Shown here: positions 1 through 40,910 of the stretch, piece after piece
Layout of the letters: every line of letters starts with the position of its first letter
Numbering within the stretch: the stretch's first letter is position 1
Virus genome (UHGV): UHGV-0075042
Length of the DNA stretch: 42,328 nt
Reading direction: 5' to 3' (one strand)
Source: a virus
Notes under the pieces: generated by a model
Database searches by the model: none
What the model was told of the DNA's origin: nothing
What the model saw: only the letters and a program-made list of their open reading frames with translations
Made by a program: the position numbers and the translations under genes

Positions 1-1158
1 ATGCTCACCGTTAAGCAGATTGAAGCAGCAAAGCCGAAAGAAAAACCATACCGCCTTCTCGATGGTAATGGCCTGTACCTTTATGTCCCTGTATCCGGGA
101 AAAAGGTATGGCAGCTTCGCTACAAGATTGACGGTAAGGAGAAAATACTGACCGTCGGAAAATATCCGCTTATGACTTTGCAAGAGGCAAGGGATAAAGC
201 ATGGACTGCGAGGAAAGACATCTCGGTTGGCATCGATCCGGTAAAGGCGAAAAAGGCTTCGTCTAACAACAATTCCTTTAGTGCGATTTACAAGGAATGG
301 TACGAGCATAAGAGGCAAGTCTGGTCAGCCGCCTATGCGACTGAACTTGCAAAAATGTTTGATGACGACATTTTACCTATCATCGGCGGCCTTGAAATTC
401 AGGATATTGAGCCGATGCAACTGCTGGAAGTAATCCGCAGATTTGAAGATCGCGGGGCAATGGAGCGAGCCAACAAAGCACGCAGAAGATGCGGCGAGGT
501 TTTCCGTTACGCTATTGTCACCGGAAGGGCTAAATATAACCCGGCACCTGACCTTGCTGACGCCATGAAGGGATACCGCAAGAAGAACTTCCCGTTTTTA
601 CCTGCCGACCAGATCCCGGCATTCAACAAAGCACTTGCAACATTTTCAGGAAGTATCGTATCTCTCATTGCGACCAAAGTTTTACGCTACACAGCACTAA
701 GAACAAAAGAGCTTCGTTCCATGCAATGGAAGAACGTCGATTTTGAAAACAGGATTATCACCATCGAGGCCAGTGTGATGAAGGGACGCAAGATTCATGT
801 GGTTCCGATGTCGGACCAGGTTGTTGAACTTCTCACTACGCTAAGCTCCATCACTAAACCAGTATCAGAGTTTGTTTTTGCCGGGCGCAACGATAAGAAG
901 AAGTCAATCTGCGAGAACGCGGTATTGCTTGTGATCAAACAAATCGGCTATGAGGGTCTGGAAAGCGGTCACGGATTCAGGCATGAATTCAGCACAATTA
1001 TGAACGAGCACGAATGGCCTGCTGACGCTATTGAAGTGCAACTGGCACATGCCAACGGCGGATCTGTGCGTGGTATTTACAACCATGCTCAGTATCTCGA
1101 TAAGCGCAGAGAAATGATGCAGTGGTGGGCGGACTGGCTTGATGAAAAGGTGGAGTGA
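1..1158 (+). CDS. Tyrosine integrase, P4-like family (second integrase of the element)
   Basis: 385-aa ORF; N-terminus has the arm-binding domain pattern typical of P4-like integrases (KPYRLLDGNGLYLYV...GKKVWQLRYKIDGKEK); C-terminus has HGFRHEF and RGIYNHAQY-type catalytic motifs. ATG is at window position 1, so upstream context is not visible. Confidence 0.85.
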   Translation: MLTVKQIEAAKPKEKPYRLLDGNGLYLYVPVSGKKVWQLRYKIDGKEKILTVGKYPLMTLQEARDKAWTARKDISVGIDPVKAKKASSNNNSFSAIYKEWYEHKRQVWSAAYATELAKMFDDDILPIIGGLEIQDIEPMQLLEVIRRFEDRGAMERANKARRRCGEVFRYAIVTGRAKYNPAPDLADAMKGYRKKNFPFLPADQIPAFNKALATFSGSIVSLIATKVLRYTALRTKELRSMQWKNVDFENRIITIEASVMKGRKIHVVPMSDQVVELLTTLSSITKPVSEFVFAGRNDKKKSICENAVLLVIKQIGYEGLESGHGFRHEFSTIMNEHEWPADAIEVQLAHANGGSVRGIYNHAQYLDKRREMMQWWADWLDEKVE

Positions 1159-1307: not shown

Positions 1308-1670
1308 ATGTTAAATATATTTGCAAGGTACACCTCGATTGGTGTGCTGAACACACTTATACACTGGGTGGTTTTTGGTGTATGTATCTATGCCGCGCAT
1401 ACCAATCAGGCTCTGGCAAACTTCGCAGGTTTCGTTGTGGCTGTGAGTTTTAGCTTCTTCGCGAATGCAAAATTCACATTCAAAGCATCAACTACAACGA
1501 TGCGCTACATGTTATATGTCGGGTTCATGGGAACACTGAGTGCTACTGTTGGATGGGCTGCTGATAGATGCGCACTTCCTCCGATGATAACTCTTGTCAC
1601 CTTCTCCGCCATCAGCCTGGTGTGCGGTTTCGTCTATTCAAAGTTCATTGTCTTTAGGGATGCGAAATGA
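1308..1670 (+). CDS. gtrA: GtrA, bactoprenol-glucose flippase (O-antigen conversion)
   Basis: 120-aa small 4-TM protein, start [24 protein letters not shown] typical of GtrA; first gene of a gtrABC operon. Confidence 0.9.
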
Positions 1671-2581
1671 AAATTTCTTTAGTCGTTCCGGTCTTTAACG
1701 AAGAGGCCACGATACCTATTTTTTATAAAACCGTGCGCGAATTTGAAGGGCTTCAGCAGCATGAAGTCGAGATAGTCTTCATAAACGATGGCAGCAAAGA
1801 CGCTACAGAATCAATTATCAACGAGCTTGCTGTTGCCGACCCGCTTGTGGTTTCGCTGTCGTTCACACGTAACTTCGGCAAAGAACCTGCCCTGTTCGCA
1901 GGTCTGGACCATGCTACCGGGGAGGCAATTATCCCGATTGACGTTGATCTGCAAGACCCTATCGAAGTTATTCCTCACTTGATAGAGAAATGGCAGGCCG
2001 GTGCAGATATGGTTCTGGCTAAACGCTCTGACCGCTCCACTGACAGCAGGCTGAAGCGTAAATCTGCTGAGTGGTTCTATAAACTTCATAACAAAATCAG
2101 CAACCCTCAGATAGAAGAGAATGTTGGCGACTTCCGGCTCATGTCTCGCGAAGTAGTAGAAAACATTAAGCTCATGCCAGAACGAAACCTGTTTATGAAG
2201 GGTGTGCTGAGCTGGGTTGGTGGTCGAACCGATGTCGTAGAATATGCGCGAGCAGAACGCGTTGCAGGAAGCACAAAGTTCAATGGATGGAAGCTATGGA
2301 ACTTGGCGCTGGAAGGGATCACTAGCTTTTCTACTTTCCCTTTGCGCATGTGGACTTATATAGGCCTGTTTGTGGCAACCTTATCATTCCTTTATGGAGC
2401 ATGGATGATTGCTGATAAATTGATGTTTGGAAATAGTGTTCCAGGTTACCCTTCTATCATTGTATCAATATTGTTTCTTGGTGGAGTTCAGTTAATAGGC
2501 ATAGGAGTTCTTGGAGAGTATATAGGAAGAATTTATGTTGAAGTTAAGCAGCGACCAAGATACATTCTAAAGGATAAGTAA
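1667..2581 (+). CDS. gtrB: GtrB, bactoprenol glucosyltransferase (GT2 family)
   Basis: 304 aa; GT2 motifs ([20 protein letters not shown]) and C-terminal TM helices; start overlaps gtrA stop. Confidence 0.9.
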
Positions 2582-2582
2582 A

Positions 2583-4049
2583 ATGACTTTAAATATAAAA
2601 AAAACAGCCATATACATCATTGGATTTATATTCCTGACTTTCTTCTACGCCTCGATTTCAAAACAGATTTTGCCAAGTTCGGATGCTGTTTCTGGACTTC
2701 TTGAGGGTAAGGACATTGCGGACGGAAATTGGACGCTTAGTGGATGGTATCTCTCTACAGTATCATTCTATTTTACAGACATAATATGGTACGGGCTTGC
2801 TTCAAAGGTATTCTGGTACGGACAGTACCAAGCATACTGCATACCGGCAATTATGTATTCAATGGTTACATTGATGACATTTTATCTTTCAAAAGAAAGG
2901 CTTTCATCGTTATGGGCCATTTCATTTTGCGTTGCGCTGCCTTCTGGGTTTGCAGTATTAAACGTATTAATACCTGTGATACATGTCGGCACATATGTAT
3001 CCATGTTGTTTTGCTTCATAATGTTAGACAATTTTTCCAAAACAAGATCGTTAATTTCTCTATCTCTTTATATTTTAGTGTTAGCTCTAGCTTGTTTCAG
3101 TGATGACATCATAAAGCTACTCATTATTGCACCAGTAGCAATATCATCAGTGATTTTTATAGTAAAAACCAAAAGCCAAAAAAATCTGATCATACTAGTT
3201 GCAACTATATTTGCATATGTTGCATCAAAAATTATGACCATGTACGCAAGAGCTCATAACTGGTACATTTTGCCAGGCGTTCCAGATCCAACATTTGTTG
3301 CATTTGATGATATCCTGAATAATTTATACTTATTCGTAAAAGGATTCCTCCTATACAGTGGAGCTTTCTTCTTTGGCAAGCCACCTTCTGATATTACAGC
3401 GCTTATTTCTGTTTTTTGTTTTGTTGTAATGATTTTACTTCTTATATTAGTTGCAATGTCAGTAAAGGAAATATTCTTTACCTCCATGATCAATATGGCT
3501 ATATGTATAGCTTGTATTATAATGATACCAGCATACCTTGCAAGTAACCGTCCAATAGATGAATGGACTATAAGATATATCGTTCCATTTTTTATACTAG
3601 CACCTGTTGTTATTGGCAGATCTAACAACTCCAGAGGGTGGAAATTCATCGCATTAGGGGTTGTTACAACATTTATTCTCTTTTGTTCTATTTATATGCA
3701 TGAAAAAAAAGACAATTCTAATGATATTATAAATCAGATAAAACACACTGTAAGGCAGAATAACCTCACAAACGGGTATGCATCTTTCTGGTTTGCTTCA
3801 TCAGCAAGTATAGATGGAGACATATCAATTGCTCCGATTGATGTAAACCGAGGTTTGAATATACTTGCATGCAATAAATGGTTGTCAAAAAACTATTGGT
3901 ATGAGCGCGGAGGAAATTTCATAATTACAGATGACGAGGTTATGAGAAATATAACAATTAAAGAGATTGGTAATCCATCAAAGGTTATTGACGTCGGAGA
4001 TAAGAAGATTTTTGTTTACGATAAAAACATTACATTCAACTGCAATTAA
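2583..4049 (+). CDS. GtrC-type serotype-specific O-antigen glucosyltransferase (polytopic membrane protein)
   Basis: 488-aa highly hydrophobic multi-TM protein directly after gtrB; markedly AT-rich, as is typical of the type-specific third gene of gtr operons. Confidence 0.7.
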   Translation: MTLNIKKTAIYIIGFIFLTFFYASISKQILPSSDAVSGLLEGKDIADGNWTLSGWYLSTVSFYFTDIIWYGLASKVFWYGQYQAYCIPAIMYSMVTLMTFYLSKERLSSLWAISFCVALPSGFAVLNVLIPVIHVGTYVSMLFCFIMLDNFSKTRSLISLSLYILVLALACFSDDIIKLLIIAPVAISSVIFIVKTKSQKNLIILVATIFAYVASKIMTMYARAHNWYILPGVPDPTFVAFDDILNNLYLFVKGFLLYSGAFFFGKPPSDITALISVFCFVVMILLLILVAMSVKEIFFTSMINMAICIACIIMIPAYLASNRPIDEWTIRYIVPFFILAPVVIGRSNNSRGWKFIALGVVTTFILFCSIYMHEKKDNSNDIINQIKHTVRQNNLTNGYASFWFASSASIDGDISIAPIDVNRGLNILACNKWLSKNYWYERGGNFIITDDEVMRNITIKEIGNPSKVIDVGDKKIFVYDKNITFNCN

Positions 4050-4080: not shown

Positions 4081-5844
4081 TCATACACTTGTACCATCCG
4101 CCCTCTTCCATTCAGATGATACTGTGTTATACCATATTGGAAGACCTAGCGTTGTATCATAATACATCTGCCCACTGACTGGTGCTGTAGGGCGCTGCGC
4201 AGTAGATCCACGGTTTTGATAAGTCGTCTGAGTATCATTAACACCTAGACAAGCTATAATACGATTTTTGCGCTCTTCCGATGTATTAAGGTAAATCTTG
4301 GTCGTCATATCGCTATCGAAAGAAACGCCATTGATGGTTATGCCGTTACAGTTATCGGCGGGGTCTGTGATCCCAAGTGGTTGCACGTAGTATCCACCTC
4401 TGATATAAGACGTACCCATAGAGCCGCCAATAACAGATATTTCTTTACAGTTTACCAACGATAGCCCACCAGTCTTATTTCCGTTGAATATATTATTAGA
4501 CAAAGAACATTGTTCAGCATTTTCCAATACCATGCCGAACTCACCACAGTAAGTGATAGTGTTTCCCGTAAATGTTAGATTTCTTGCCCCTTTAATATTA
4601 ATTCCACGACTATTGTTTATCCTCCCTGCACTAATAATGTTACCGCTGATGGTAGCGTAAGCCAGACTCTCCATATCAAAAGCAGTACCGTTGATGGCAT
4701 CAAAAACGCTATTTGAAATTATAACCGGATAACCCGCGAATTGGTCTGTTCCACCCATCTCACCAAGTGTTGTGCGTGTTCTTACCGCAAAATCTCCAGC
4801 AAACATTGAGCATTCACTAATAAATAAATCGGCGGTATCCCATACGTCAATCGGAGAGTTAGAACTGAAACACATAAGAAACTTAGGTGATTCGCTGATG
4901 AACTCCACAGTATTTAAATCCGCACGCCCCAAGAATGGACTACCCCAACGTTCGCACCGGAAGAAGTTAACGTAATGGTAGTTGTTCATAGTAGTTTGTG
5001 CGTTATAGAAAAACACCCGATCAAACTCTAAGTTCTGGACATGACGACAAACAATCCAGTTAATCAGCACGTCGGATGATATGACTACATCTCGGAATAT
5101 GCCACCCTGTTTCCACTGACTAGCAGCCGGGCCAGACCCTGTAAGGGTAAACATAGTGAAGGTTGAATCAGAACCTAGATATTTAATCTCTGGATTTTTT
5201 GCGTTACCAATAATTTCATATTTTGCTGGAAGCTCAATGTCTCTGGTCTTCATTCCATATATGCCAGAACCTTTCAAGTGAATTTTTCTTGCGCCTGAAG
5301 CGAATGCCTTCTGAAAGGCTATGCTATTATCTGTTGTTCCAGAATCATCTTTGCCACCAAAGTCTTCCAAAAATACAAAATCATCCAGCTTTTCTTGTAC
5401 ATTCCTGAAGACAGCACCATCAACAACAGATGGTAATCCATACTTATACTTTACTGTTTCAGGGAATGCCCCGCTTGCAAACTCTCCCTCTAGCTCCTGC
5501 CGGAACTGGTCCGGGTCATACTTGAGAATGTTTGGATAGTAGAACTGCTGTGTGCCATATGCGTCATACACAGCCATTGAATGTCCCTGTACGGTAACGA
5601 ACTTTGCAATCTGTCCGTTATATACCGGATAACCAGCAGCGTTAATGATGATTGGTTGCGAAACAGGAACGTGAGAGCCGTCTTCGTTCTCTACATAAAC
5701 CTGAATCTGGTTTTCAGGATTTACCGGGTCAGTGTCAATTTTACCGATATAAATTTTGCCATTGGCAACGGCTTTAAAAGAACGCGCCATAGTGAAGAGT
5801 TGCGAAGGCATGCTTACCACAACATTGGCTGTAATGTCTGTCAT
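4081..5844 (-). CDS. Tailspike protein (P22-like N-terminal head-binding domain plus distinct beta-helix receptor-binding domain)
   Basis: 587 aa; N-terminal ~110 aa ([13 protein letters not shown]...[21 protein letters not shown]...[13 protein letters not shown]) matches the conserved head-binding domain of P22/Sf6-family tailspikes as recalled; remainder is Gly/Asn/Ser-rich, beta-helix-like. Confidence 0.85.
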
Positions 5845-6008
5845 TTAATTTGCTCCGGACGTAGCAATGCCGAACAAGATGCAACTTGCCCAGCATTGCA
5901 CTAATGTCAGTTATGATTTGTTAATTATGAGATGAGTCTATGCAAAGAGATCTGTTGAATATTGCGCTCTATATATTTGGTTTTTGCACGTTCCTGGTGT
6001 TTGCAAAG

Positions 6009-18063: not shown

Positions 18064-19479
18064 TCAACCTACACCACAAGGAATTGAGTAACTGGAATAG
18101 TCGGGTTGCGCAGCCGACTCCGGGCAATGCATACACATCATCAGTGCATCAGCCAGGTTAGGAGATGGAATACCGAGCTTCTGCTTCATTTCGACCTTAG
18201 TCATTAGCTCCAGCTTCCCGTTGTTATTGAATTTGCGCTGAATCTGCGTCAGTTCTGCAAACAGCTTCTCCAGCATCTTCTCGCCTATCGCTTCTTTGTC
18301 GAAGCTCAGCATGTCGTCGGGGTCTGCATACTCACCGTGGACAACCGCCCGATATGTCAGATACAGCCTGTCAGCCAGTGCGTAATAGAATTGCGCTCGC
18401 TTATTGCGGAATACATCGCCAATAGTACGAACGTTGTCACCCTGTACGACTTCATCAGCCCATGCTCCGGCCTGATACGGTGCATCTTCATCAAATGGCG
18501 ATTCGCTTCCCTTGAACATCGTGGCGGTGATTTTCTTGCCGGAGAACGCTTCCGTTGTCTGTCTGCGTAGCCCTGCACCGACACCATCACCATCCCACAG
18601 GTAGTGGTCAGCGCCGTCTTCAATCGCCAGAGAAGTAGCCCAGTCAGCACCCTCGTTGATGTCCATCAGCAGGCCTTCGGCAATGCGTTTAACTACCGAA
18701 CCGTGGCGCGATGCATAACCTTTAGCATCCGGTCCTGTATCTGACGGGTCATGCGCAGAGACAACAGCGCCTTTCGCTTTCCATCCGAGTTTCTTGTGCG
18801 CATCGGTTGCGGCTTCAAGCCATTCACGTTTGATGATTGCCATATCACTTGCGCTTACTGGCTCACCAAGCCAGATGTGACGATACAGTGTCGGATTTCT
18901 GCGTTTGCACTCTTCCATCTCCAGACGGAGAACTTCAGGAAAGTGCGGGTTGTCGGTGTAGTTCACCGTCAGCAGGCAAATATCATCGGGAGGATTTACG
19001 ACGAATCGCTGATAGGTATCGTCGAGGATGTTCTTCGGGTTAAAGCTCACCCATATTTCAGAGAACGGCTTACGGATGGTTGGGATCAGGATATCCCATG
19101 ATTCCTTCGTTACCGCTTCCGCTTCTTCCACCCAGCAGATATCAATGCCTTCGAGCGATTTAATCTTCGTCGGGTTGTTTTTGATGCCGTAGAACATGAA
19201 CTCAGCATTCGTTCCGAGATGACGAATCATGGAACGCTGAATTTCAAACTCAGCCGAATACCCTTCACGCTCGATGGTATCTTCAAGCAACCGGATTACC
19301 GAATCGCTGATACTGTTTTGCAGTTCGCGAGCGCAGAGAATACGCACCGGCTGCCGACGCGCCGCTTCAACAAGCAGTCTCGCAATTGCCCATGATTTAC
19401 CGCTACCTCGACCGCCTTTGGCGACTTTGTAGCGATGCGCCTCAATGAACGGTTCAAAGATAGGATTAATCGTGGTCAT
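18064..19479 (-). CDS. Terminase large subunit
   Basis: 471 aa; Walker A KGGRGSGKSW near N-terminus, nuclease-domain acidic residues C-terminally. Confidence 0.9.
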   Translation of the reverse strand: MTTINPIFEPFIEAHRYKVAKGGRGSGKSWAIARLLVEAARRQPVRILCARELQNSISDSVIRLLEDTIEREGYSAEFEIQRSMIRHLGTNAEFMFYGIKNNPTKIKSLEGIDICWVEEAEAVTKESWDILIPTIRKPFSEIWVSFNPKNILDDTYQRFVVNPPDDICLLTVNYTDNPHFPEVLRLEMEECKRRNPTLYRHIWLGEPVSASDMAIIKREWLEAATDAHKKLGWKAKGAVVSAHDPSDTGPDAKGYASRHGSVVKRIAEGLLMDINEGADWATSLAIEDGADHYLWDGDGVGAGLRRQTTEAFSGKKITATMFKGSESPFDEDAPYQAGAWADEVVQGDNVRTIGDVFRNKRAQFYYALADRLYLTYRAVVHGEYADPDDMLSFDKEAIGEKMLEKLFAELTQIQRKFNNNGKLELMTKVEMKQKLGIPSPNLADALMMCMHCPESAAQPDYSSYSIPCGVG

Positions 19480-20003
19480 TTTCCGAATAGAGTGCTCATC
19501 GGTGATGTTTCTATCTGGATTGCGCCGCCGTCTTTGCCGGTTAGCTCGTGAGAAGATTGTTCTTTAAATGCCTGAACAGAAACATGCTTACCAAGAAGTT
19601 CGAGGTTTTTAACCTTATCAGGCCATTTGATTTTCTTCAGAAGTGCGGCACTATCTGCGGATACCATCTCCACAACATCCATTCCTGATAGCGTTGTGCG
19701 CCATACCTTAGGCCAGTCTTTAATGGGCTTTAACTCACCGTTTTGCAGAAGAATGTCGAGCACATCCATCTGGTCGATTTCAAGAAGGCGATTAAGTACA
19801 TATTCTGCATTAATACCAACAAGATCATTGCGTTGCGCTTTCAGTTCGGCGATTCTTAACTTGATGTCAGGTTTTGACAGGTTTTCGGATGCGGTACGGT
19901 TAGCTGTCTTTGCGCTGTACCCCGCACGAATAGCCGCTTGCGTGGCGTTTAAATCGATGAGGTACTCGTGACAGAACATTTCTTGCTTGTCAGTAAGTGC
20001 CAT
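19476..20003 (-). CDS. Terminase small subunit
   Basis: 175 aa, MALTDKQEMFCHEYLIDLNATQAAIRAGYS is a typical small-terminase N-terminus; stop overlaps the large-subunit start. Confidence 0.8.
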   Translation of the reverse strand: MALTDKQEMFCHEYLIDLNATQAAIRAGYSAKTANRTASENLSKPDIKLRIAELKAQRNDLVGINAEYVLNRLLEIDQMDVLDILLQNGELKPIKDWPKVWRTTLSGMDVVEMVSADSAALLKKIKWPDKVKNLELLGKHVSVQAFKEQSSHELTGKDGGAIQIETSPMSTLFGK

Positions 20004-20024
20004 GTTTTATCTCTGGAGATTTTC

Positions 20025-20270
20025 GTGAGAAAATTAATCGTATTTGTATCTTTTTGTTCGGCTTTAGGCTTTGGCTATCAAGCCATAACCAGTCAAACAT
20101 TATCCACAGCGCTAGCAGCATTAGCGAGTTTGGTCGTTTTTCTAACAGCCTTAGCAAATCTAAAAAGCAACAAAGCTAAAGAGCAAGGTGTTAGCCAAAC
20201 AATCGGCGATAACTCTAGCGGTATACAAATTGGTGGCAACATAACTATTAATGAAAGGGACAAAGAATGA
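20025..20270 (+). CDS. Small membrane protein, first gene of opposite-strand moron cassette
   Basis: GTG start at 20025 with GGAG 8 nt upstream; two hydrophobic helices; C-terminus QTIGDNSSGIQIGGNITINERDKE; stop overlaps next start (ATGA). Confidence 0.5.
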   Translation: MRKLIVFVSFCSALGFGYQAITSQTLSTALAALASLVVFLTALANLKSNKAKEQGVSQTIGDNSSGIQIGGNITINERDKE

Positions 20271-21172
20271 GCTTATTCGAGAAATCCGGTCAAAGTGTGG
20301 GTGATAACTCCTCAGCTATACAAGTTACCGGTGATGCCTACTTTGGCAACACCACTACTGAGGTCATGGCTATTTGCCAGTTAATGGTCAAAAGTGAAAT
20401 GGCTTCGCTTCGTGAAGATGCATTCGCTTTAGTCGACTCACGGGCTCAAGAATTTGGTCACCAAATTGCAGAAAAACTATCTAAAGATGTTGATGAAAAA
20501 CTAAGAGCAAAACTCGCTGATCCCGATATTCAGTACACCCTCAATCAAGCAGTCGTTCAGGTCGCAAGAAAGGGGTTTGATGCAAAATCAGAACTTCTTA
20601 AGGAGTTAATAGTTACTAAAATTGAAAACGATCAAGAAGACCAAAGCATTTTGATCGATCAAGCGTTAGATACAACATCCAGACTGACCACTAATGATAT
20701 TAAGTTTTTGGCATTTGTATATTTTTTACGTTCAATCAATAAGATGGTAGGAAGTATAAATATCACAGAACTTGCAGAGAAAAAAAGTACTCATTTTTCA
20801 CTACCTAACATTTCCTTGGAAGAAAATTACATGATCCATAGGTCAATGTATGCTGTTTATGAAACAGATTATATAAAATTTCTTGGAGAACATTTCACCC
20901 TCAAACGCCTAAATCAGCAGCTATTAGAAATTAAAGGCGTATTTTTCTCAGATAAAATATATAATATCAATTACTTAGAGTTATTATCAAAAAGAACGGG
21001 TTATGACACTCTTACATCTGATGCATCATTTTATGAAGCATTCCCAGCTACAAAATTAGTTCTCGACTCTTTTGGTATTTCAACCCTTACAGAACTTGAC
21101 TCACTAGTCATCAATCCAGTAGGTATGATTATTGCAGAAAATTATCTCAAAGCTCATGGATATATCAGTTAA
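20267..21172 (+). CDS. Hypothetical 301-aa protein, second gene of moron cassette (no family assigned)
   Basis: Long ORF in AT-rich DNA, opposite to the flanking late genes; N-terminus SVGDNSSAIQVTGDAYFGN echoes the upstream protein's C-terminus; no TM segments evident. Confidence 0.65.
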   Translation: MSLFEKSGQSVGDNSSAIQVTGDAYFGNTTTEVMAICQLMVKSEMASLREDAFALVDSRAQEFGHQIAEKLSKDVDEKLRAKLADPDIQYTLNQAVVQVARKGFDAKSELLKELIVTKIENDQEDQSILIDQALDTTSRLTTNDIKFLAFVYFLRSINKMVGSINITELAEKKSTHFSLPNISLEENYMIHRSMYAVYETDYIKFLGEHFTLKRLNQQLLEIKGVFFSDKIYNINYLELLSKRTGYDTLTSDASFYEAFPATKLVLDSFGISTLTELDSLVINPVGMIIAENYLKAHGYIS

Positions 21173-21529
21173 TACTCAGCATATGTAAAAAGGCTCATGG
21201 ATGCCAGTTGCCAGAGTCGGGAAAGATAATTGGCGGACATTACCTAGGCTCTCCATCGTTAGCCATAGGTTACTCCGTCGTTTGCTCTGTCTGTCCTGCC
21301 GCTACTGGCGTGAACTGCACGCGCTTCGCATCACCAGGAGCAAAGTACAGCTACTCGCCTGTCTCGGTCGCCAGCGGCACAAAGCCATTAACCAGCTCAT
21401 GCTGACGTCGTGACATCTTGCCAGTGAAGGTTTCGCCTGTTTGGGTGGTTAGCGTGATTTGGTAGATGTCGGACATAGTGTTATACCTTCAAAGGCGGTT
21501 AAAATTACCAATGACATATAGGAGGAAGA

Positions 21530-21790
21530 ATGTCTTCGTTCAACCAAACAAGCCTACGATCATCCAACAGCCCGCTTCGCATAGAAACAACTGATAAAGA
21601 ACATGCCATTGCCCATGAGGCAATTTTGGTTGCCTTATTGACTAACGTTGCAAGGTCTGCGCACAGCAATCAGGCGCTGATTGAATTAGAAGAAACAGTT
21701 AAAGGTTTGATTAGCAATTCCAACCCTAATAGCTTTCGGATCGCTTCAGATCTCATTAATGAAGCAAAAGAGAATTTCAACAGGGGTTGA
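21530..21790 (+). CDS. Hypothetical small protein (86 aa)
   Basis: ATG preceded by AGGAGG at optimal spacing; same strand as the moron cassette. Confidence 0.5.
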   Translation: MSSFNQTSLRSSNSPLRIETTDKEHAIAHEAILVALLTNVARSAHSNQALIELEETVKGLISNSNPNSFRIASDLINEAKENFNRG

Positions 21791-21856: not shown

Positions 21857-22381
21857 TCAGCCAATCAGCAATTCTGGCTGCGTCACCTGCATGATGTGCT
21901 CATGCTCTAGCTCAAGAACGCGCTTCTCTTTCTTCCGCTCATTCATCAACCGGCTACCGATCGTTCCCTTCAACTTTGAGCGCGTTTCTTTGATGGCGTA
22001 GCGGTGCTGCATTTCTTCACCCATGGCCAGGCGACGGCTAAGTTGCTCAGACATCCAGTTGAACGCTGAAATGTAGCTTTCTTTGATAGCCGCAGCAGCT
22101 TTCCCGGTGAATCCCATAACAACCATGATCCAGCCATCTTTCGTCAGGCTATACATCGGGCGAACCTTACCCTGCTCATCGATATAATCAGCCGACGCAA
22201 AATTGCGTTGGCTAAACTCTCTTGAGCAATCGGCCTTAACCTGCTCGATTTTCCTGAGCACATCACCGTGTCGCTTTCCGAAGTACGTAGCAACTTTTCT
22301 GGATGTGGTAACGACCTCTCCGTTTTTAGCTTGCACCATTTCTCGGAAGTCAAAGGCCGGAATAACTGACGGATTATTCAT
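21857..22381 (-). CDS. Rha-family phage regulatory protein
   Basis: Product from ATG at 22381 (MNNPSVIPAFDFREMVQAKNGEVVTTSRKVATYFGKRHGDVLRKIEQ) looks like the Rha N-terminal domain; the longer 243-aa frame is an upstream extension. Confidence 0.7.
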   Translation of the reverse strand: MNNPSVIPAFDFREMVQAKNGEVVTTSRKVATYFGKRHGDVLRKIEQVKADCSREFSQRNFASADYIDEQGKVRPMYSLTKDGWIMVVMGFTGKAAAAIKESYISAFNWMSEQLSRRLAMGEEMQHRYAIKETRSKLKGTIGSRLMNERKKEKRVLELEHEHIMQVTQPELLIG

Positions 22382-32848: not shown

Positions 32849-33430
32849 TTACTTGTTTTTGCCATGCTTATCCTGAGCGATAAGTTCATCCATAAGGCTG
32901 TCTGCCTTCCCGGCAAACCTAATGTAGCACTCATGTCTATAGCTTTCCGGGATAATAAAACGGTCGGTATCAGGATATCCAACAGCAGGAGGCCTTCGAA
33001 CGAGGAGGCCTTTTTTGAGCAATGAAATTGATTCATGAGCTCCCTTTTCCGTTTGTAGCTGGTTATTAGCGGCTACAGCGAATGCCAAATACGCTCTTTC
33101 TCCAAGAGTTAACGAATCAAACAAATCTTGCACATATTTTTCTTCTTTGGATTTGCGCTTCTGAGCAGCGGATACCTCAATTCTTTCAGTCACAGCGTGA
33201 TAAGCGGAATTAACTACACCGTTAAGCACATAGCTAACGCAGAACAACAGGATGTAATACATCCAATAATGAGGAAGGATTTCTGGATTATGCAGGTTTA
33301 TCCATTCTTTTACGCTTACCGGCATAACAATAATCAATATGATCAGGATGATTAGCATATGAATCAACTGTTTAAGTGTCATTCCTTGCAGGAAAAAATG
33401 CATTAGTTCCTGCCACCATGAGTTGTTCAT
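32849..33430 (-). CDS. sieB: Superinfection exclusion protein B
   Basis: 193 aa, opposite to pL transcription next to N; N-terminal TM helices; matches lambda/P22 SieB by position and as recalled by sequence. Confidence 0.8.
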   Translation of the reverse strand: MNNSWWQELMHFFLQGMTLKQLIHMLIILIILIIVMPVSVKEWINLHNPEILPHYWMYYILLFCVSYVLNGVVNSAYHAVTERIEVSAAQKRKSKEEKYVQDLFDSLTLGERAYLAFAVAANNQLQTEKGAHESISLLKKGLLVRRPPAVGYPDTDRFIIPESYRHECYIRFAGKADSLMDELIAQDKHGKNK

Positions 33431-39643: not shown

Positions 39644-39862
39644 ATGTACTTGACTCTTCAGGAGTGGAACGCTCGCCAGCGACGCCCAAGAAGCCTTGAA
39701 ACAGTTCGTCGATGGGTGCGCGAATGCAGGATATTCCCTCCTCCGGTTAAGGATGGAAGAGAGTATCTGTTCCACGAATCAGCGGTAAAGGTTGACTTAA
39801 ATCGACCAGTAACAGGTAGCCTTTTGAAGAGGATCAGAAATGGGAAGAAGGCGAAGTCATGA
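39644..39862 (+). CDS. xis: Excisionase Xis (lambda-type)
   Basis: 72 aa, MYLTLQEWNARQRRPRSLETVRRWVRECRIFPPPVKDGREYLFHESAVKVDL matches lambda Xis. Confidence 0.95.
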   Translation: MYLTLQEWNARQRRPRSLETVRRWVRECRIFPPPVKDGREYLFHESAVKVDLNRPVTGSLLKRIRNGKKAKS

Positions 39863-40910
39863 GCGCCGGGATTTACCCCCTAACCTTTATTTAAGAAACA
39901 ATGGATATTACTGCTACAGGGACCCAAGGACGGGTAAAGAGTTCGGATTAGGCAGAGACAGGAGGATAGCAATCACTGAAGCTATACAGGCCAACATTGA
40001 GTTATTTTCAGGACACAAACACAAGCCTCTGACAGCGAGAATCAACAGTGATAATTCTGTTACGTTACATTCATGGCTTGATCGCTACGAAAAAATCCTC
40101 GCCAGCAGAGGAATCAAGCAGAAGACACTCATAAATTACATGAGCAAAATTAAAGCAATAAGGAGGGGTCTGCCTGATGCTCCACTTGAAGACATCACCA
40201 CAAAAGAAATTGCGGCAATGCTCAATGGATACATAGACGAGGGCAAGGCTGCGTCAGCCAAGTTAATCAGATCAACACTGAGCGATGCATTCCGAGAGGC
40301 AATAGCTGAAGGCCATATAACAACAAACCCTGTCGCTGCCACTCGCGCAGCAAAATCAGAGGTAAGGAGATCAAGACTTACGGCTGACGAATACCTGAAA
40401 ATTTATCAAGCAGCAGAATCATCACCATGTTGGCTCAGACTTGCAATGGAACTGGCTGTTGTTACCGGGCAGCGAGTTGGTGATTTATGCGAAATGAAGT
40501 GGTCTGATATCGTAGATGGATATCTTTATGTCGAGCAAAGCAAAACAGGCGTAAAAATTGCCATCCCAACAACATTGCATGTTGATGCTCTCGGGATATC
40601 AATGAAGGAAACACTTGATAAATGCAAAGAGATTCTTGGCGGAGAAACCATAATTGCATCTACTCGTCGTGAACCGCTTTCATCCGGCACAGTATCAAGG
40701 TATTTTATGCGCGCACGAAAAGCATCAGGTCTTTCCTTCGAAGGGGATCCGCCTACCTTTCACGAGTTGCGCAGTTTGTCTGCAAGACTCTATGAGAAGC
40801 AGATAAGCGATAAGTTTGCTCAACATCTTCTCGGGCATAAGTCGGACACCATGGCATCACAGTATCGTGATGACAGAGGCAGGGAGTGGGACAAAATTGA
40901 AATCAAATAA
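39840..40910 (+). CDS. int: Integrase Int (lambda-type tyrosine recombinase)
   Basis: 356 aa, MGRRRSHERRDLPPNLY...RDDRGREWDKIEIK matches lambda Int almost throughout as recalled; overlaps xis 3' end as in lambda. Confidence 0.97.
   Translation: MGRRRSHERRDLPPNLYLRNNGYYCYRDPRTGKEFGLGRDRRIAITEAIQANIELFSGHKHKPLTARINSDNSVTLHSWLDRYEKILASRGIKQKTLINYMSKIKAIRRGLPDAPLEDITTKEIAAMLNGYIDEGKAASAKLIRSTLSDAFREAIAEGHITTNPVAATRAAKSEVRRSRLTADEYLKIYQAAESSPCWLRLAMELAVVTGQRVGDLCEMKWSDIVDGYLYVEQSKTGVKIAIPTTLHVDALGISMKETLDKCKEILGGETIIASTRREPLSSGTVSRYFMRARKASGLSFEGDPPTFHELRSLSARLYEKQISDKFAQHLLGHKSDTMASQYRDDRGREWDKIEIK

What the first reader, a model, noticed from the sequence alone, without database searches (positions are those of the whole stretch)
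20025..21172. AT-rich two-gene moron on the opposite strand between lysis genes and terminase: candidate undescribed exclusion/defence module
Between Rz/Rha and the small terminase gene, where P22-like phages often carry cargo, sits a two-gene operon transcribed against the late genes. It encodes a ~81-aa two-helix membrane protein and a translationally coupled (ATGA overlap) 301-aa soluble protein. Its AT-richness contrasts with the flanking morphogenesis genes. The small protein's C-terminus (GDNSSGIQIGGNITIN) and the large protein's N-terminus (GDNSSAIQVTGDAYFGN) share a motif, hinting at a duplicated module or interaction interface. I cannot assign either protein to a named family from sequence alone. 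The layout suits a lysogen-expressed exclusion, abortive-infection or toxin-immunity function.
Basis: partly seen in the sequence, partly recalled or inferred. Interest (0 to 1): 0.8.

Follow-up and report, generated by a model that had tools for sequence, protein, structure and literature searches.

The report
Prophage membrane-sensor pair sharing amyloid-like motif
A P22-like E. coli prophage carries a two-gene cargo cassette whose small membrane protein and larger soluble protein share a short, co-evolving glycine/asparagine/glutamine-rich tail, the signature of the recently found amyloid-signalling phage-defence systems; this family is widespread in prophage defence hotspots and has never been tested.

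Summary
On the + strand, against the late genes, lie an 81-aa two-helix membrane protein (20025..20270, GTG start) and a 301-aa soluble protein (20267..21172). They overlap by ATGA and have 36-39% GC against 51% for the neighbouring terminase and portal genes.

The large protein is not an orphan. It belongs to the uncharacterised LPO_1073/Vpar_1526 family (NF045477, PF28206), which has about 1,570 clusters at 50% identity. DefensePredictor (Science 2026) lists this exact protein as a "predicted novel defense gene", but did not clone it.

What is new is the pairing. In all 14 distinct unfused loci I read, from Gamma- to Alphaproteobacteria, a small 1-2 TM protein sits directly upstream. Its C-terminal ~20 residues repeat the motif at the N-terminus of the Vpar_1526 protein.
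- The two motifs co-vary within pairs (permutation p = 2e-4).
- The motif is rich in G/Q/N/V and almost free of P/L/K.
- AlphaFold predicts it as disordered.

This matches the gene-pair signature of amyloid signalling (HET-S/NWD2, BASS, and Bab/Agp of E. coli), but with a different sensor and effector.

The cassette sits at the lysis|terS junction of several prophage types. Paralogues sit in the P2 old/tin hotspot, in integrase islands and in a satellite-like element.

The most likely function is abortive infection or exclusion with motif-templated activation of a membrane effector. Nothing has been shown experimentally.

The parts
20015..20018 (+). Shine-Dalgarno GGAG, 6 nt before the GTG start of the small gene
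   Evidence: Read from the sequence. The GTG start and this upstream block are conserved in the Klebsiella, Pantoea and Enterobacter loci.
20025..20270 (+). Small membrane protein gene (81 aa, GTG start). It is the proposed effector or anchor: a two-helix hairpin plus a cytoplasmic tail.
   Evidence: ORF and translation. PGAP annotation WP_001228633.1. This exact protein is on 509 contigs. It has 60 homologous clusters, none with a Pfam domain, and matches phrog_27656 of unknown function.
20031..20162 (+). Two hydrophobic helices (residues 3-21 and 26-46) joined by a short polar loop. Predicted to form an N-in/C-in membrane hairpin.
   Evidence: Kyte-Doolittle profile peaks at 1.7 and 2.3. MRK precedes the helices and KSNKAK follows them. 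In the natural fusion P0184, AF2 models the equivalent region as two helices, 3-33 and 38-61.
20193..20252 (+). C-terminal shared motif of the small protein, residues 57-76 (SQTIGDNSSGIQIGGNITIN)
   Evidence: Conserved in all partner proteins examined. It aligns column for column with the N-terminal motif of the large protein.
20267..20270 (+). ATGA overlap: the start codon of the large gene overlaps the stop codon of the small gene, giving translational coupling
   Evidence: Read from the sequence. Other loci show spacings from -14 to +10 nt.
20267..21172 (+). [quoted passage not shown] It is the proposed cytoplasmic sensor.
   Evidence: NF045477 scores 97.5 bits against a cutoff of 45. PF28206 is recorded for it. 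PGAP names it WP_001544378.1. The family has 1,570 50%-identity clusters at E<=1e-3.
20285..20347 (+). N-terminal shared motif of the large protein, residues 7-27 (SGQSVGDNSSAIQVTGDAYFG)
   Evidence: Family-wide consensus is Q-x-V-G-D-[NG]-S-x-A-[IVL]-Q-A-G-G-[DN]-[VI]-x-x-G, with Q9 at 91%, Q19 at 89% and G27 at 91%. Relative to the rest of the protein, G is x5.4, Q x3.0, P x0.05 and L x0.24. AF2 gives pLDDT <50 for residues 1-32.
20351..20746 (+). Constant helical module, residues 29-160, including the DPDIQY..NQAVVQVARKGFDAKSELLKELI core
   Evidence: It is 92-97% identical to the Pantoea, Serratia and Klebsiella variants over residues 29-120. It is the only part that distant family members share, profile positions 5-160. 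It is helical in AF2, with pLDDT 50-90.
20747..21169 (+). Variable C-terminal domain, residues 161-301. It is the proposed specificity or recognition domain.
19476..20003 (-). Small terminase gene, the left boundary. Any promoter for the cassette must lie inside its 5' end.
   Evidence: PF03592, E=7e-40. Only 21 nt separate its ATG from the GTG of the small gene. The roughly 110-nt 5' end of terS is nearly invariant at the DNA level across five genera. No consensus sigma-70 site was found there.

Best explanation
The cassette is a prophage-borne, two-protein anti-phage module of the abortive-infection or exclusion type.

**Proposed mechanism.**
1. The 301-aa Vpar_1526-family protein is a cytoplasmic sensor. 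Its hypervariable C-terminal domain recognises an infection cue. Its disordered N-terminal ~20-residue G/N/Q-rich motif is the output.
2. The 81-aa protein sits in the inner membrane as a helical hairpin. It exposes the same motif on a cytoplasmic tail.
3. On activation, the sensor's motifs associate into a stacked beta (amyloid-like) nucleus.
4. This nucleus recruits and templates the tails of the membrane protein.
5. The clustered hairpins compromise the membrane, which stops the infecting phage.

**What is shown.**
- The gene pair and its translational coupling.
- The membrane character of the small protein.
- Family membership of the large protein.
- Motif identity, composition and co-variation across pairs.
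- The mosaic of a constant N-terminal module and a variable C-terminal domain.
- The mobile and hotspot contexts.

**What is inferred.**
- Expression in the lysogen.
- The defence function.
- Sensing by the C-terminal domain.
- The cross-beta nature of the motif contact.
- Membrane damage as the output.
For: **1. Obligate pairing.** All 14 distinct unfused Vpar_1526 loci I read have a 59-92 aa, 1-2 TM protein directly upstream. Each ends in the partner's motif.
- E. coli window.
- Leclercia, Serratia, Providencia.
- Enterobacter and Pantoea.
- Klebsiella.
- Metagenome loci L010, L021 and L022.
- Nitrospirillum.
- Citrobacter.
- Two P2-type pairs.

**2. Co-variation.** Cognate motifs are more alike than non-cognate ones. 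The cognate sum is 465 against 349 +/- 28 for permuted partners, p = 2e-4. Shared derived states include:
- GDNSNIV / GDNSNIV (Citrobacter);
- ANQAGRDI / ANQASRDI (L022);
- IQAGRNIH / IQAGGDIH (Nitrospirillum).

**3. Composition.** It matches the published BASS signature of enrichment in Q, N, G, V and depletion in K, P, L. Gene order and overlap match the published pair architecture, in which 91% of pairs are collinear and 42% overlap.

**4. Disorder.** AF2 predicts the motif regions as disordered in both models.

**5. Precedent.** E. coli Bab/Agp is a prophage or defence-island Abi system that works through a 20-aa shared amyloid motif and a small membrane-targeting effector.

**6. Defence context.**
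- The same lysis|terS site in P22-like, Mu-F-type lambdoid and HK97-like prophages.
- The P2 gpA|gpQ old/tin hotspot.
- A P4-type integrase island with a putAbiC gene.
- An integrase+capsid satellite-like element.
- A position next to hipBA.
- DefensePredictor gives log-odds of 6.76, 8.86 and 10.45 for three E. coli family members.

**7. Modularity.** Rare fusions replace or absorb the partner.
- TM+motif+domain: P0184 and P0173.
- HNH-like+motif+domain: P0169 and P0190; the P0169 locus has no small upstream gene.

**8. Arms-race mosaic.** The N-module is 92-97% identical where the C-domain is 29-36% identical.
Against: - There are no experimental data for any family member. Nothing shows expression, toxicity, phage phenotype or fibril formation.
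- The sensor has no NTPase or other recognisable oligomerisation engine, unlike NLRs.
- The effector is a predicted integral membrane hairpin, not a soluble Bell/HeLo-type domain.
- The published anchor residues of BASS11 (I87-G88-S89-V90, Q92, D99-N100 in Bab) cannot be superposed on this motif in any register. It is therefore not that motif family (plus reasoning).
- AF2 of the natural fusion shows no motif-motif contact.
- The motif is retained in the fused, all-in-one proteins. There, templating between separate proteins would not be needed, so it may serve plain self-association.
- PADLOC gives no hit.
- No promoter was identified.
- The fusions come from single short metagenomic contigs and could be frameshift artefacts.
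- The HNH call is weak: 19.4 bits against a cutoff of 21 for one protein, and nothing for the other.
- Co-variation proves a motif-motif constraint, not amyloid.
Confidence: 0.45

Rival explanations
1. The module is a membrane-tethered exclusion or defence system without amyloid. The shared motif is an ordinary one-to-one beta-strand zipper. It docks the Vpar_1526 protein onto the cytoplasmic tail of the small protein. The small protein is then only an anchor, and the large protein acts at the inner membrane, for instance by blocking DNA entry or a membrane step of the incoming phage. This would resemble superinfection-exclusion proteins.
For: - The pairing, co-variation and membrane character are explained equally well by this reading.
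- Fused proteins keep the motif next to the TM segment.
- The sensor lacks an oligomerisation engine.
- The same prophage also carries SieB, so exclusion functions are typical cargo here.
- Vpar_1526 itself was detected in membrane fractions of Veillonella parvula.
Against: - A G/N/Q-rich, proline-free, disordered 20-mer present identically on both partners is unusual for a heterodimeric docking site.
- It is typical of homotypic stacking.
- The HNH-like fusions suggest that the partner is an interchangeable effector rather than an anchor.
Confidence: 0.25
2. The pair is an addiction or toxin-antitoxin-like module. The small membrane protein is a toxin and the large protein holds it in check, or the reverse. 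The module stabilises the prophage or island rather than defending against phages.
For: - Small hydrophobic proteins are common membrane toxins.
- The two genes are translationally coupled.
- The pair occurs on mobile elements of many kinds, and once next to hipBA.
Against: - The hypervariable C-terminal domain on a constant N-module and the hotspot locations fit sensing of a changing external target better than neutralisation of a constant partner.
- The shared motif is not a feature of known TA pairs (my own knowledge).
- DefensePredictor scores are high, although many TA systems also defend.
Confidence: 0.12
3. The pair has an accessory role in the phage's own life cycle, such as timing of lysis, control of packaging, or antisense regulation of terS. 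On this reading the cassette is not cargo.
For: - It is located between the lysis and packaging genes.
- It is transcribed antisense into terS, with its upstream region embedded in the conserved 5' end of terS.
- The small protein has a weak match to a holin PHROG, E = 0.059.
Against: - The pair also occurs in non-prophage islands: Serratia next to an IS3-family transposase, a Citrobacter P4-type integrase island and Nitrospirillum.
- In P2-like phages it sits at a different site.
- It is present in only 13 of 5,426 complete E. coli genomes.
- It is absent from all 50,697 phage records, so it is dispensable.
- Its AT-rich composition marks it as foreign to the phage backbone.
Confidence: 0.08

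Closest known systems
Bab/Agp amyloid-signalling Abi system of E. coli ECOR25 (Ibarlosa et al., bioRxiv 10.1101/2024.11.07.622273)
   Same: - Two adjacent collinear genes in prophage or defence hotspots of E. coli.
- The first encodes a ~100-aa membrane-targeting protein with a ~20-aa motif at its C-terminus. The second encodes a larger cytoplasmic sensor with the same motif at its N-terminus.
- The motif is G/N/Q-rich.
- The proposed output is membrane damage and abortive infection.
   Different: [quoted passage not shown]
- The effector here is a predicted integral two-helix hairpin, not a soluble Bell-type bundle with the N-terminal 'MEPIS' region.
- The motif sequence differs: the BASS11 anchor residues do not fit in any register.
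- Nothing is experimentally shown here.
BASS1-10 Bell/NLR gene pairs (Dyrka et al. 2020, bioRxiv 10.1101/2020.01.06.895854) and fungal HET-S/NWD2
   Same: - A motif shared between the effector C-terminus and the sensor N-terminus of adjacent, often overlapping genes.
- The same composition bias: Q, N, G, V enriched and K, P, L depleted.
- Cognate motifs are similar to each other.
- All-in-one fusions exist.
   Different: - Those sensors are NB-ARC or NACHT NTPases with repeats. Here no NTPase is present.
- Those pairs were reported almost only in multicellular Actinobacteria and Cyanobacteria. This family is common in Enterobacterales prophages.
- The effector is not a Bell or HeLo domain.
Lambda RexA/RexB (my own knowledge; not tested here)
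   Same: A prophage-encoded two-protein Abi logic in which a cytoplasmic sensor activates an inner-membrane partner and the membrane potential collapses.
   Different: - There is no sequence or fold relationship.
- RexB has four transmembrane helices.
- There is no shared terminal motif.
Cargo of the P2 gpA|gpQ hotspot (old, tin and others; Rousset et al. 2022, PMC9122126)
   Same: Paralogous small-TM + Vpar_1526 pairs occupy exactly this hotspot. One member, WP_000490525, appears as 'hypothetical' in that paper's table of gene arrangements.
   Different: - It is not homologous to old or tin.
- As far as the held text shows, it is not among the systems cloned in that study.
- The cassette in this window sits at a different hotspot, lysis|terS of a P22-like phage.

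Membership tests
LPO_1073/Vpar_1526 family (NCBIfam NF045477; Pfam PF28206) | Whole-protein score above the curated cutoff of the family model, covering most of the profile | tested here: met
   The score is 97.5 bits against a cutoff of 45. Residues 27-295 match profile positions 1-244 of 257. PF28206 is precomputed for it and for all homologues. PGAP gives it this family name.
Amyloid-signalling gene pair (BASS/FASS type) | A ~20-25 aa motif shared by the C-terminus of one protein and the N-terminus of the protein encoded by the adjacent gene | tested here: met
   In the window the motifs share 9 of 15 residues, with a score of 52 against 27.6 +/- 4.0 in shuffles (0 of 2000 reached it). The same arrangement holds in 14 distinct pairs.
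Amyloid-signalling gene pair (BASS/FASS type) | Genes collinear and closely spaced or overlapping | tested here: met
   There is a 4-nt ATGA overlap here. Other loci have spacings from -14 to +10 nt. Published pairs are 91% collinear and 42% overlapping.
Amyloid-signalling gene pair (BASS/FASS type) | Composition bias: enriched in Q, N, G, V, I and depleted in K, P, L | tested here: met
   Across 154 family members, the motif columns relative to the rest of the protein give G x5.4, Q x3.0, N x1.7, V x1.5, P x0.05, L x0.24 and K x0.41. Isoleucine is not enriched, at x0.73.
Amyloid-signalling gene pair (BASS/FASS type) | Cognate motifs resemble each other more than non-cognate ones (co-evolution) | tested here: met
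   Over 9 non-redundant pairs the cognate sum is 465 against a permuted mean of 349 +/- 28, p = 2e-4.
Amyloid-signalling gene pair (BASS/FASS type) | The sensor is an NLR-type NTPase (NB-ARC/NACHT) or another oligomerising receptor such as TGP | tested here: not met
   Pfam, NCBIfam and PADLOC find no NTPase, TPR, PIN or other known domain. No fold match was found.
Amyloid-signalling gene pair (BASS/FASS type) | The effector is a Bell/HeLo-type membrane-targeting domain or a known immune effector (TIR, CHAT and similar) | tested here: not met
   The small protein has no Pfam family above cutoff. It is a predicted two-helix integral membrane hairpin. It is membrane-directed, but of a different kind.
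Amyloid-signalling gene pair (BASS/FASS type) | The motif forms cross-beta fibrils or prion-like foci, and the sensor-side motif seeds the effector-side motif | not testable with these tools
   This needs peptides, ThT/Congo red binding, electron microscopy or in-vivo GFP reporters. AF2 monomer models only show disorder, with pLDDT <50.
BASS11 motif family (Bab/Agp) | The conserved BASS11 positions reported for Bab: I87-G88-S89-V90, Q92, D99-N100 | tested here: not met
   No register places I/V-G, Q(+5) and D-N(+12/+13) on either motif of the window. I checked the residues given by hand against the sequences. The full BASS11 sequence is not in the held text, so this test is partial.
Known or candidate defence systems catalogued in PADLOC-DB v2.0.0 | A match to any of the 5,027 models | tested here: not met
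   No family matched either protein at E<=1.
Holin / lysis accessory proteins | A significant match to a holin family and a position inside the lysis cassette | tested here: not met
   The only match is phrog_565, at E = 0.059. The real holin, lysozyme and Rz genes lie further right on the other strand. The pair also occurs away from any lysis genes.

The most novel reading that the evidence does not exclude
The small-TM + Vpar_1526 pairs form a large family of phage-defence modules that had not been recognised as such. The family has roughly 1,500 clusters at 50% identity and spans Alpha- to Gammaproteobacteria. In these modules a minimal, NTPase-free sensor activates an integral-membrane effector by templating a shared ~20-residue amyloid-like motif. 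If so, prion-like signalling would be a common currency of prophage hotspots in unicellular enteric bacteria, not a rarity of multicellular bacteria or of the single Bab/Agp system. The motif would also be a swappable connector between sensors and effectors.
Probability: 0.35. Interest if true: 0.85.

Novelty: new variant of a known kind. Interest (0 to 1): 0.72.

Why it matters
Amyloid (prion-like) signalling in bacterial immunity currently rests on one experimentally studied E. coli system, Bab/Agp, and on bioinformatic pairs found almost only in multicellular bacteria. This cassette would add several things:
- a second, far more widespread family;
- a different sensor with no NTPase;
- a different kind of effector, a resident membrane hairpin.

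It sits in classic prophage cargo sites, including the P2 old/tin hotspot.

The system is small (1.15 kb, two proteins). It has natural variants that keep the signalling module and swap the C-terminal domain, which makes it a convenient system for three questions:
- how a sensor turns ligand recognition into templated assembly;
- how specific cognate motifs are;
- what the variable domain recognises.

It would also give a function to a named but uncharacterised family (PF28206/NF045477), and to a gene that a machine-learning screen flagged but did not test.

Tried and rejected
**Searches that gave nothing**
- Local Pfam for both proteins.
- PADLOC.
- PDB by sequence profile: best hit E = 0.29, a designed helical repeat.
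- Foldseek against BFVD: no hit at E <= 0.001.
- tblastn against 50,697 phage records, for both the window protein and the P2-type paralogue.
- Full-text search for the family names and accessions. The only hit was a proteome table listing Vpar_1526 as uncharacterised.

- The afdb50 fold library was not available.
- The genome-contig scan returned only 2 loci.
- The profile search with distant members was saturated by close relatives.

**Inconclusive analyses**
- Promoter scans were uninformative. No sigma-70 consensus lies upstream of 20025, and the counts do not exceed those in shuffles.
- AF2 of the natural fusion P0184 was run to see whether two motif copies pack together. They are simply disordered.

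**Ideas considered and dropped**
- Holin, antiholin or another lysis accessory role, because the pair occurs away from lysis genes.
- A structural or housekeeping phage protein, because it is absent from isolated phages and present in only 13 of 5,426 E. coli genomes.
- Identity with BASS11, because the anchor residues do not fit.
- Treating the 86-aa + strand ORF at 21530..21790 as a third component. It follows the pair only in the closest relatives (E. coli, Enterobacter) and not in Klebsiella, Leclercia, Providencia or other loci.
Full report
**1. The observation**

The window holds a complete P22-like prophage. Its features, in order:
- gtrABC;
- a tailspike with the P22 head-binding domain;
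- P22-family capsid, portal, TerL and TerS genes;
- Rha, Rz/lysozyme/holin, Q and the nin genes;
- a CI-like repressor and SieB;
- a lambda-type integrase next to the host gene ybhC.

Two + strand genes lie between terS (19476..20003, - strand) and Rha (21857..22381, - strand).
- The small gene, 20025..20270, encodes 81 aa. Its start codon is GTG, preceded by GGAG.
- The large gene, 20267..21172, encodes 301 aa.
- The two overlap in ATGA. PGAP annotates the same two ORFs.

GC is 0.386 and 0.357, against 0.513 for terL and portal.

The small protein has two hydrophobic helices, residues 3-21 and 26-46, with basic residues on both outer sides. By the positive-inside rule this places its C-terminal tail in the cytoplasm.

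Its ungapped score is 52, against 27.6 +/- 4.0 in 2000 shuffles, and no shuffle reached it.

**2. What the proteins are**

The large protein is a clear member of the LPO_1073/Vpar_1526 family. NF045477 scores 97.5 bits against a cutoff of 45, and PF28206 is recorded for it. The family is named but uncharacterised. The only paper naming it lists Vpar_1526 as an uncharacterised protein found in membrane fractions of Veillonella.

Nothing else recognises it:
- local Pfam and PADLOC give nothing;
- PHROGs gives only unknown-function families for both proteins;
- there is no BFVD match.

A profile search of 1.84 billion representatives finds 1,570 clusters at E<=1e-3. Most of them share only the N-terminal 160 residues.

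AF2 (pTM 0.69) gives three regions:
- a disordered N-terminus, residues 1-32, with pLDDT <50;
- a moderately confident helical N-half;
- a confident C-terminal domain with pLDDT about 90.

**3. The pair is the unit**

Every unfused family member whose DNA I could read has a small 1-2 TM protein directly upstream. That protein's last ~20 residues repeat the motif at the N-terminus of its partner. There are 14 distinct pairs.

| Source |
|---|
| E. coli (window) |
| Leclercia |
| Serratia |
| Providencia |
| Enterobacter, Pantoea |
| Klebsiella |
| Three metagenomic lineages sharing only the N-half |
| Nitrospirillum (Alphaproteobacteria; two tandem sensors) |
| Citrobacter |
| Two P2-type pairs |

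MAFFT spontaneously aligns the small proteins' C-termini with the large proteins' N-termini.

Rare fusions exist.
- P0184 and P0173 have TM segment(s), motif(s) and the Vpar_1526 domain in one chain.
- P0169 and P0190 have an N-terminal HNH-like domain in place of the membrane partner. The P0169 locus has no small upstream gene.
- The HNH call is weak: 19.4 bits against a cutoff of 21 for one protein, and nothing for the other.
- All four fusions come from single short contigs.

**4. The motif**

Across 154 family members the consensus is Q-x-V-G-D-[NG]-S-x-A-[IVL]-Q-A-G-G-[DN]-[VI]-x-x-G. Q9, Q19 and G27 are each about 90% conserved.

Relative to the rest of the protein, the motif columns are enriched in G (x5.4), Q (x3.0), N (x1.7) and V (x1.5). 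They are depleted in P (x0.05), L (x0.24) and K (x0.41).

Within pairs the two motifs share derived states:
- GDNSNIV / GDNSNIV;
- ANQAGRDI / ANQASRDI;
- IQAGRNIH / IQAGGDIH.

The summed cognate similarity is 465, against 349 +/- 28 for permuted partners (p = 2e-4). Independent drift of two proteins would not make cognates more alike than non-cognates. The motifs are therefore under a mutual constraint, meaning they contact or must match each other.

**5. Comparison with the literature**

This is the gene-pair signature used to define amyloid signalling. Dyrka et al. 2020 describe:
- a ~25-aa motif at the effector C-terminus and the sensor N-terminus;
- adjacent collinear genes, 42% of them overlapping;
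- enrichment in Q/N/G/V/I and depletion in K/P/L;
- all-in-one fusions.

Ibarlosa et al. 2024 showed that one such pair, Bab/Agp, is a real Abi system in E. coli, carried in prophage or defence hotspots. It works through a 20-aa motif, and single proline substitutions abolish its function.

The present pair differs in three respects.
- The sensor has no NTPase, TPR or PIN domain.
- The effector is a resident membrane hairpin rather than a Bell-type bundle.
- The BASS11 anchor residues do not fit this motif in any register.

I therefore do not file it as a BASS1-11 member. I say it probably works in the same way.

AF2 monomer models show the motifs as disordered. That is compatible with the idea but does not diagnose it.

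**6. Evidence for a defence role**

- **Location.** The cassette sits at the lysis|terS junction, antisense to the late genes, in P22-like, Mu-F-type lambdoid and HK97-like prophages.
- **P2 hotspot.** Paralogues lie between gpA and gpQ of P2/186-like prophages, which is the old/tin hotspot of Rousset et al. 2022. One member is listed as 'hypothetical' in that paper's table.
- **Other mobile contexts:**
  - a P4-type integrase island with a putAbiC gene;
  - an integrase+capsid satellite-like element;
  - a position next to hipBA;
  - an island next to an IS3-family transposase in Serratia.
- **Sporadic distribution.** It is present in 13 of 5,426 complete E. coli genomes and absent from isolated phage records.
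- **Mosaic structure.** The N-module is 92-97% identical where the C-terminal domain is only 29-36% identical. This is the pattern expected of a specificity domain in an arms race.
- **Independent prediction.** DefensePredictor Table S10 lists WP_001544378.1, this exact protein, as 'Predicted novel defense gene'. Its mean log-odds is 6.76 against a strict cutoff of 4. Two other E. coli family members score 8.86 and 10.45. None is among the cloned units.

**7. Mechanism and rivals**

The best-supported reading (0.45) is a sensor plus membrane effector Abi or exclusion module that signals by homotypic, probably cross-beta, association of the shared motif.

| Rival | Confidence |
|---|---|
| Plain docking of the sensor to a membrane anchor, giving exclusion without amyloid | 0.25 |
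| Addiction or toxin-antitoxin module | 0.12 |
| Accessory role in the phage's own lysis or packaging | 0.08 |

The last rival is disfavoured because the pair occurs outside prophages and at a different site in P2-like phages.

Not shown: expression in the lysogen (no promoter was identified; only 21 nt separate the cassette from terS, whose 5' end is unusually conserved at the DNA level), any phenotype, and any biophysics.

**8. Verdict**

The defence candidate reading is strengthened, but the large protein does belong to a named family and had already been flagged by a machine-learning screen.
- The finding is best described as a new variant of a known kind: an amyloid-signalling-type two-gene module with a new sensor family and a new effector type, widespread in enterobacterial prophage hotspots.
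- Interest is 0.72.

Noticed in passing
window 19890..20003 (5' end of terS, - strand) and the equivalent stretches of L002, L008, L009, L014: The first ~110 nt of terS, directly upstream of the cassette, are nearly invariant at the DNA level across E. coli, Klebsiella, Enterobacter, Pantoea and Leclercia. Over the same set the large cassette gene has diverged to 56-65% amino-acid identity. Two explanations are possible: the cassette's promoter is embedded there, or this is the recombination joint that moves the cassette.
   Followed up: partly
window 21530..21790 (+): A third + strand ORF of 86 aa (WP_000093956.1, GC 0.42) has no family match. A terminator-like hairpin lies inside it at 21608..21624. 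It follows the pair only in the closest relatives (E. coli, and Enterobacter L008 9276..9536), so it is probably a separate small moron.
   Followed up: partly
window 21270..21476 (-): PGAP annotates this stretch as a pseudogene with an internal stop. It is 89.5% identical to a segment of Enterobacter phages BHUENT6, ENT1 and BHUENT3. It looks like a remnant of a late-region gene beside the cassette.
   Followed up: no
window 1308..4049 (+) and 32849..33430 (-): The same prophage carries other lysogen-benefit cargo. One is a gtrA/gtrB/gtrC-like O-antigen modification operon next to the tailspike; the third gene has no Pfam match. The other is a SieB superinfection-exclusion gene in the immunity region.
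   Followed up: partly
window 1..1158 (+) and 39840..40910 (+): The window holds two integrase genes. One is a P4-type (Arm-DNA-bind_3) at the left edge, and one is lambda-type (Arm-DNA-bind_1) next to host ybhC at the right. The left one may belong to a neighbouring element.
   Followed up: no
L011 5350..9278 (Nitrospirillum): One small TM+motif gene is followed by two tandem Vpar_1526 paralogues (281 and 283 aa). A free-standing HNH_2 protein lies two genes upstream. This suggests that one effector can serve several sensors and that HNH nucleases recur near the family.
   Followed up: partly
L002 9004..9342 (Leclercia prophage): The gene directly downstream of the cassette has a weak Acb2/Tad1-hairpin Pfam hit. 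This would put a possible anti-defence gene beside the putative defence cassette.
   Followed up: no
L029 4582..4599 and 5842..5870 (E. coli P2-like plasmid prophage): The P2-type pair is bracketed by terminator-like hairpins. One lies upstream, and a 12-bp stem sits exactly at the stop codon of the large gene. This is consistent with an autonomous transcription unit.
   Followed up: no
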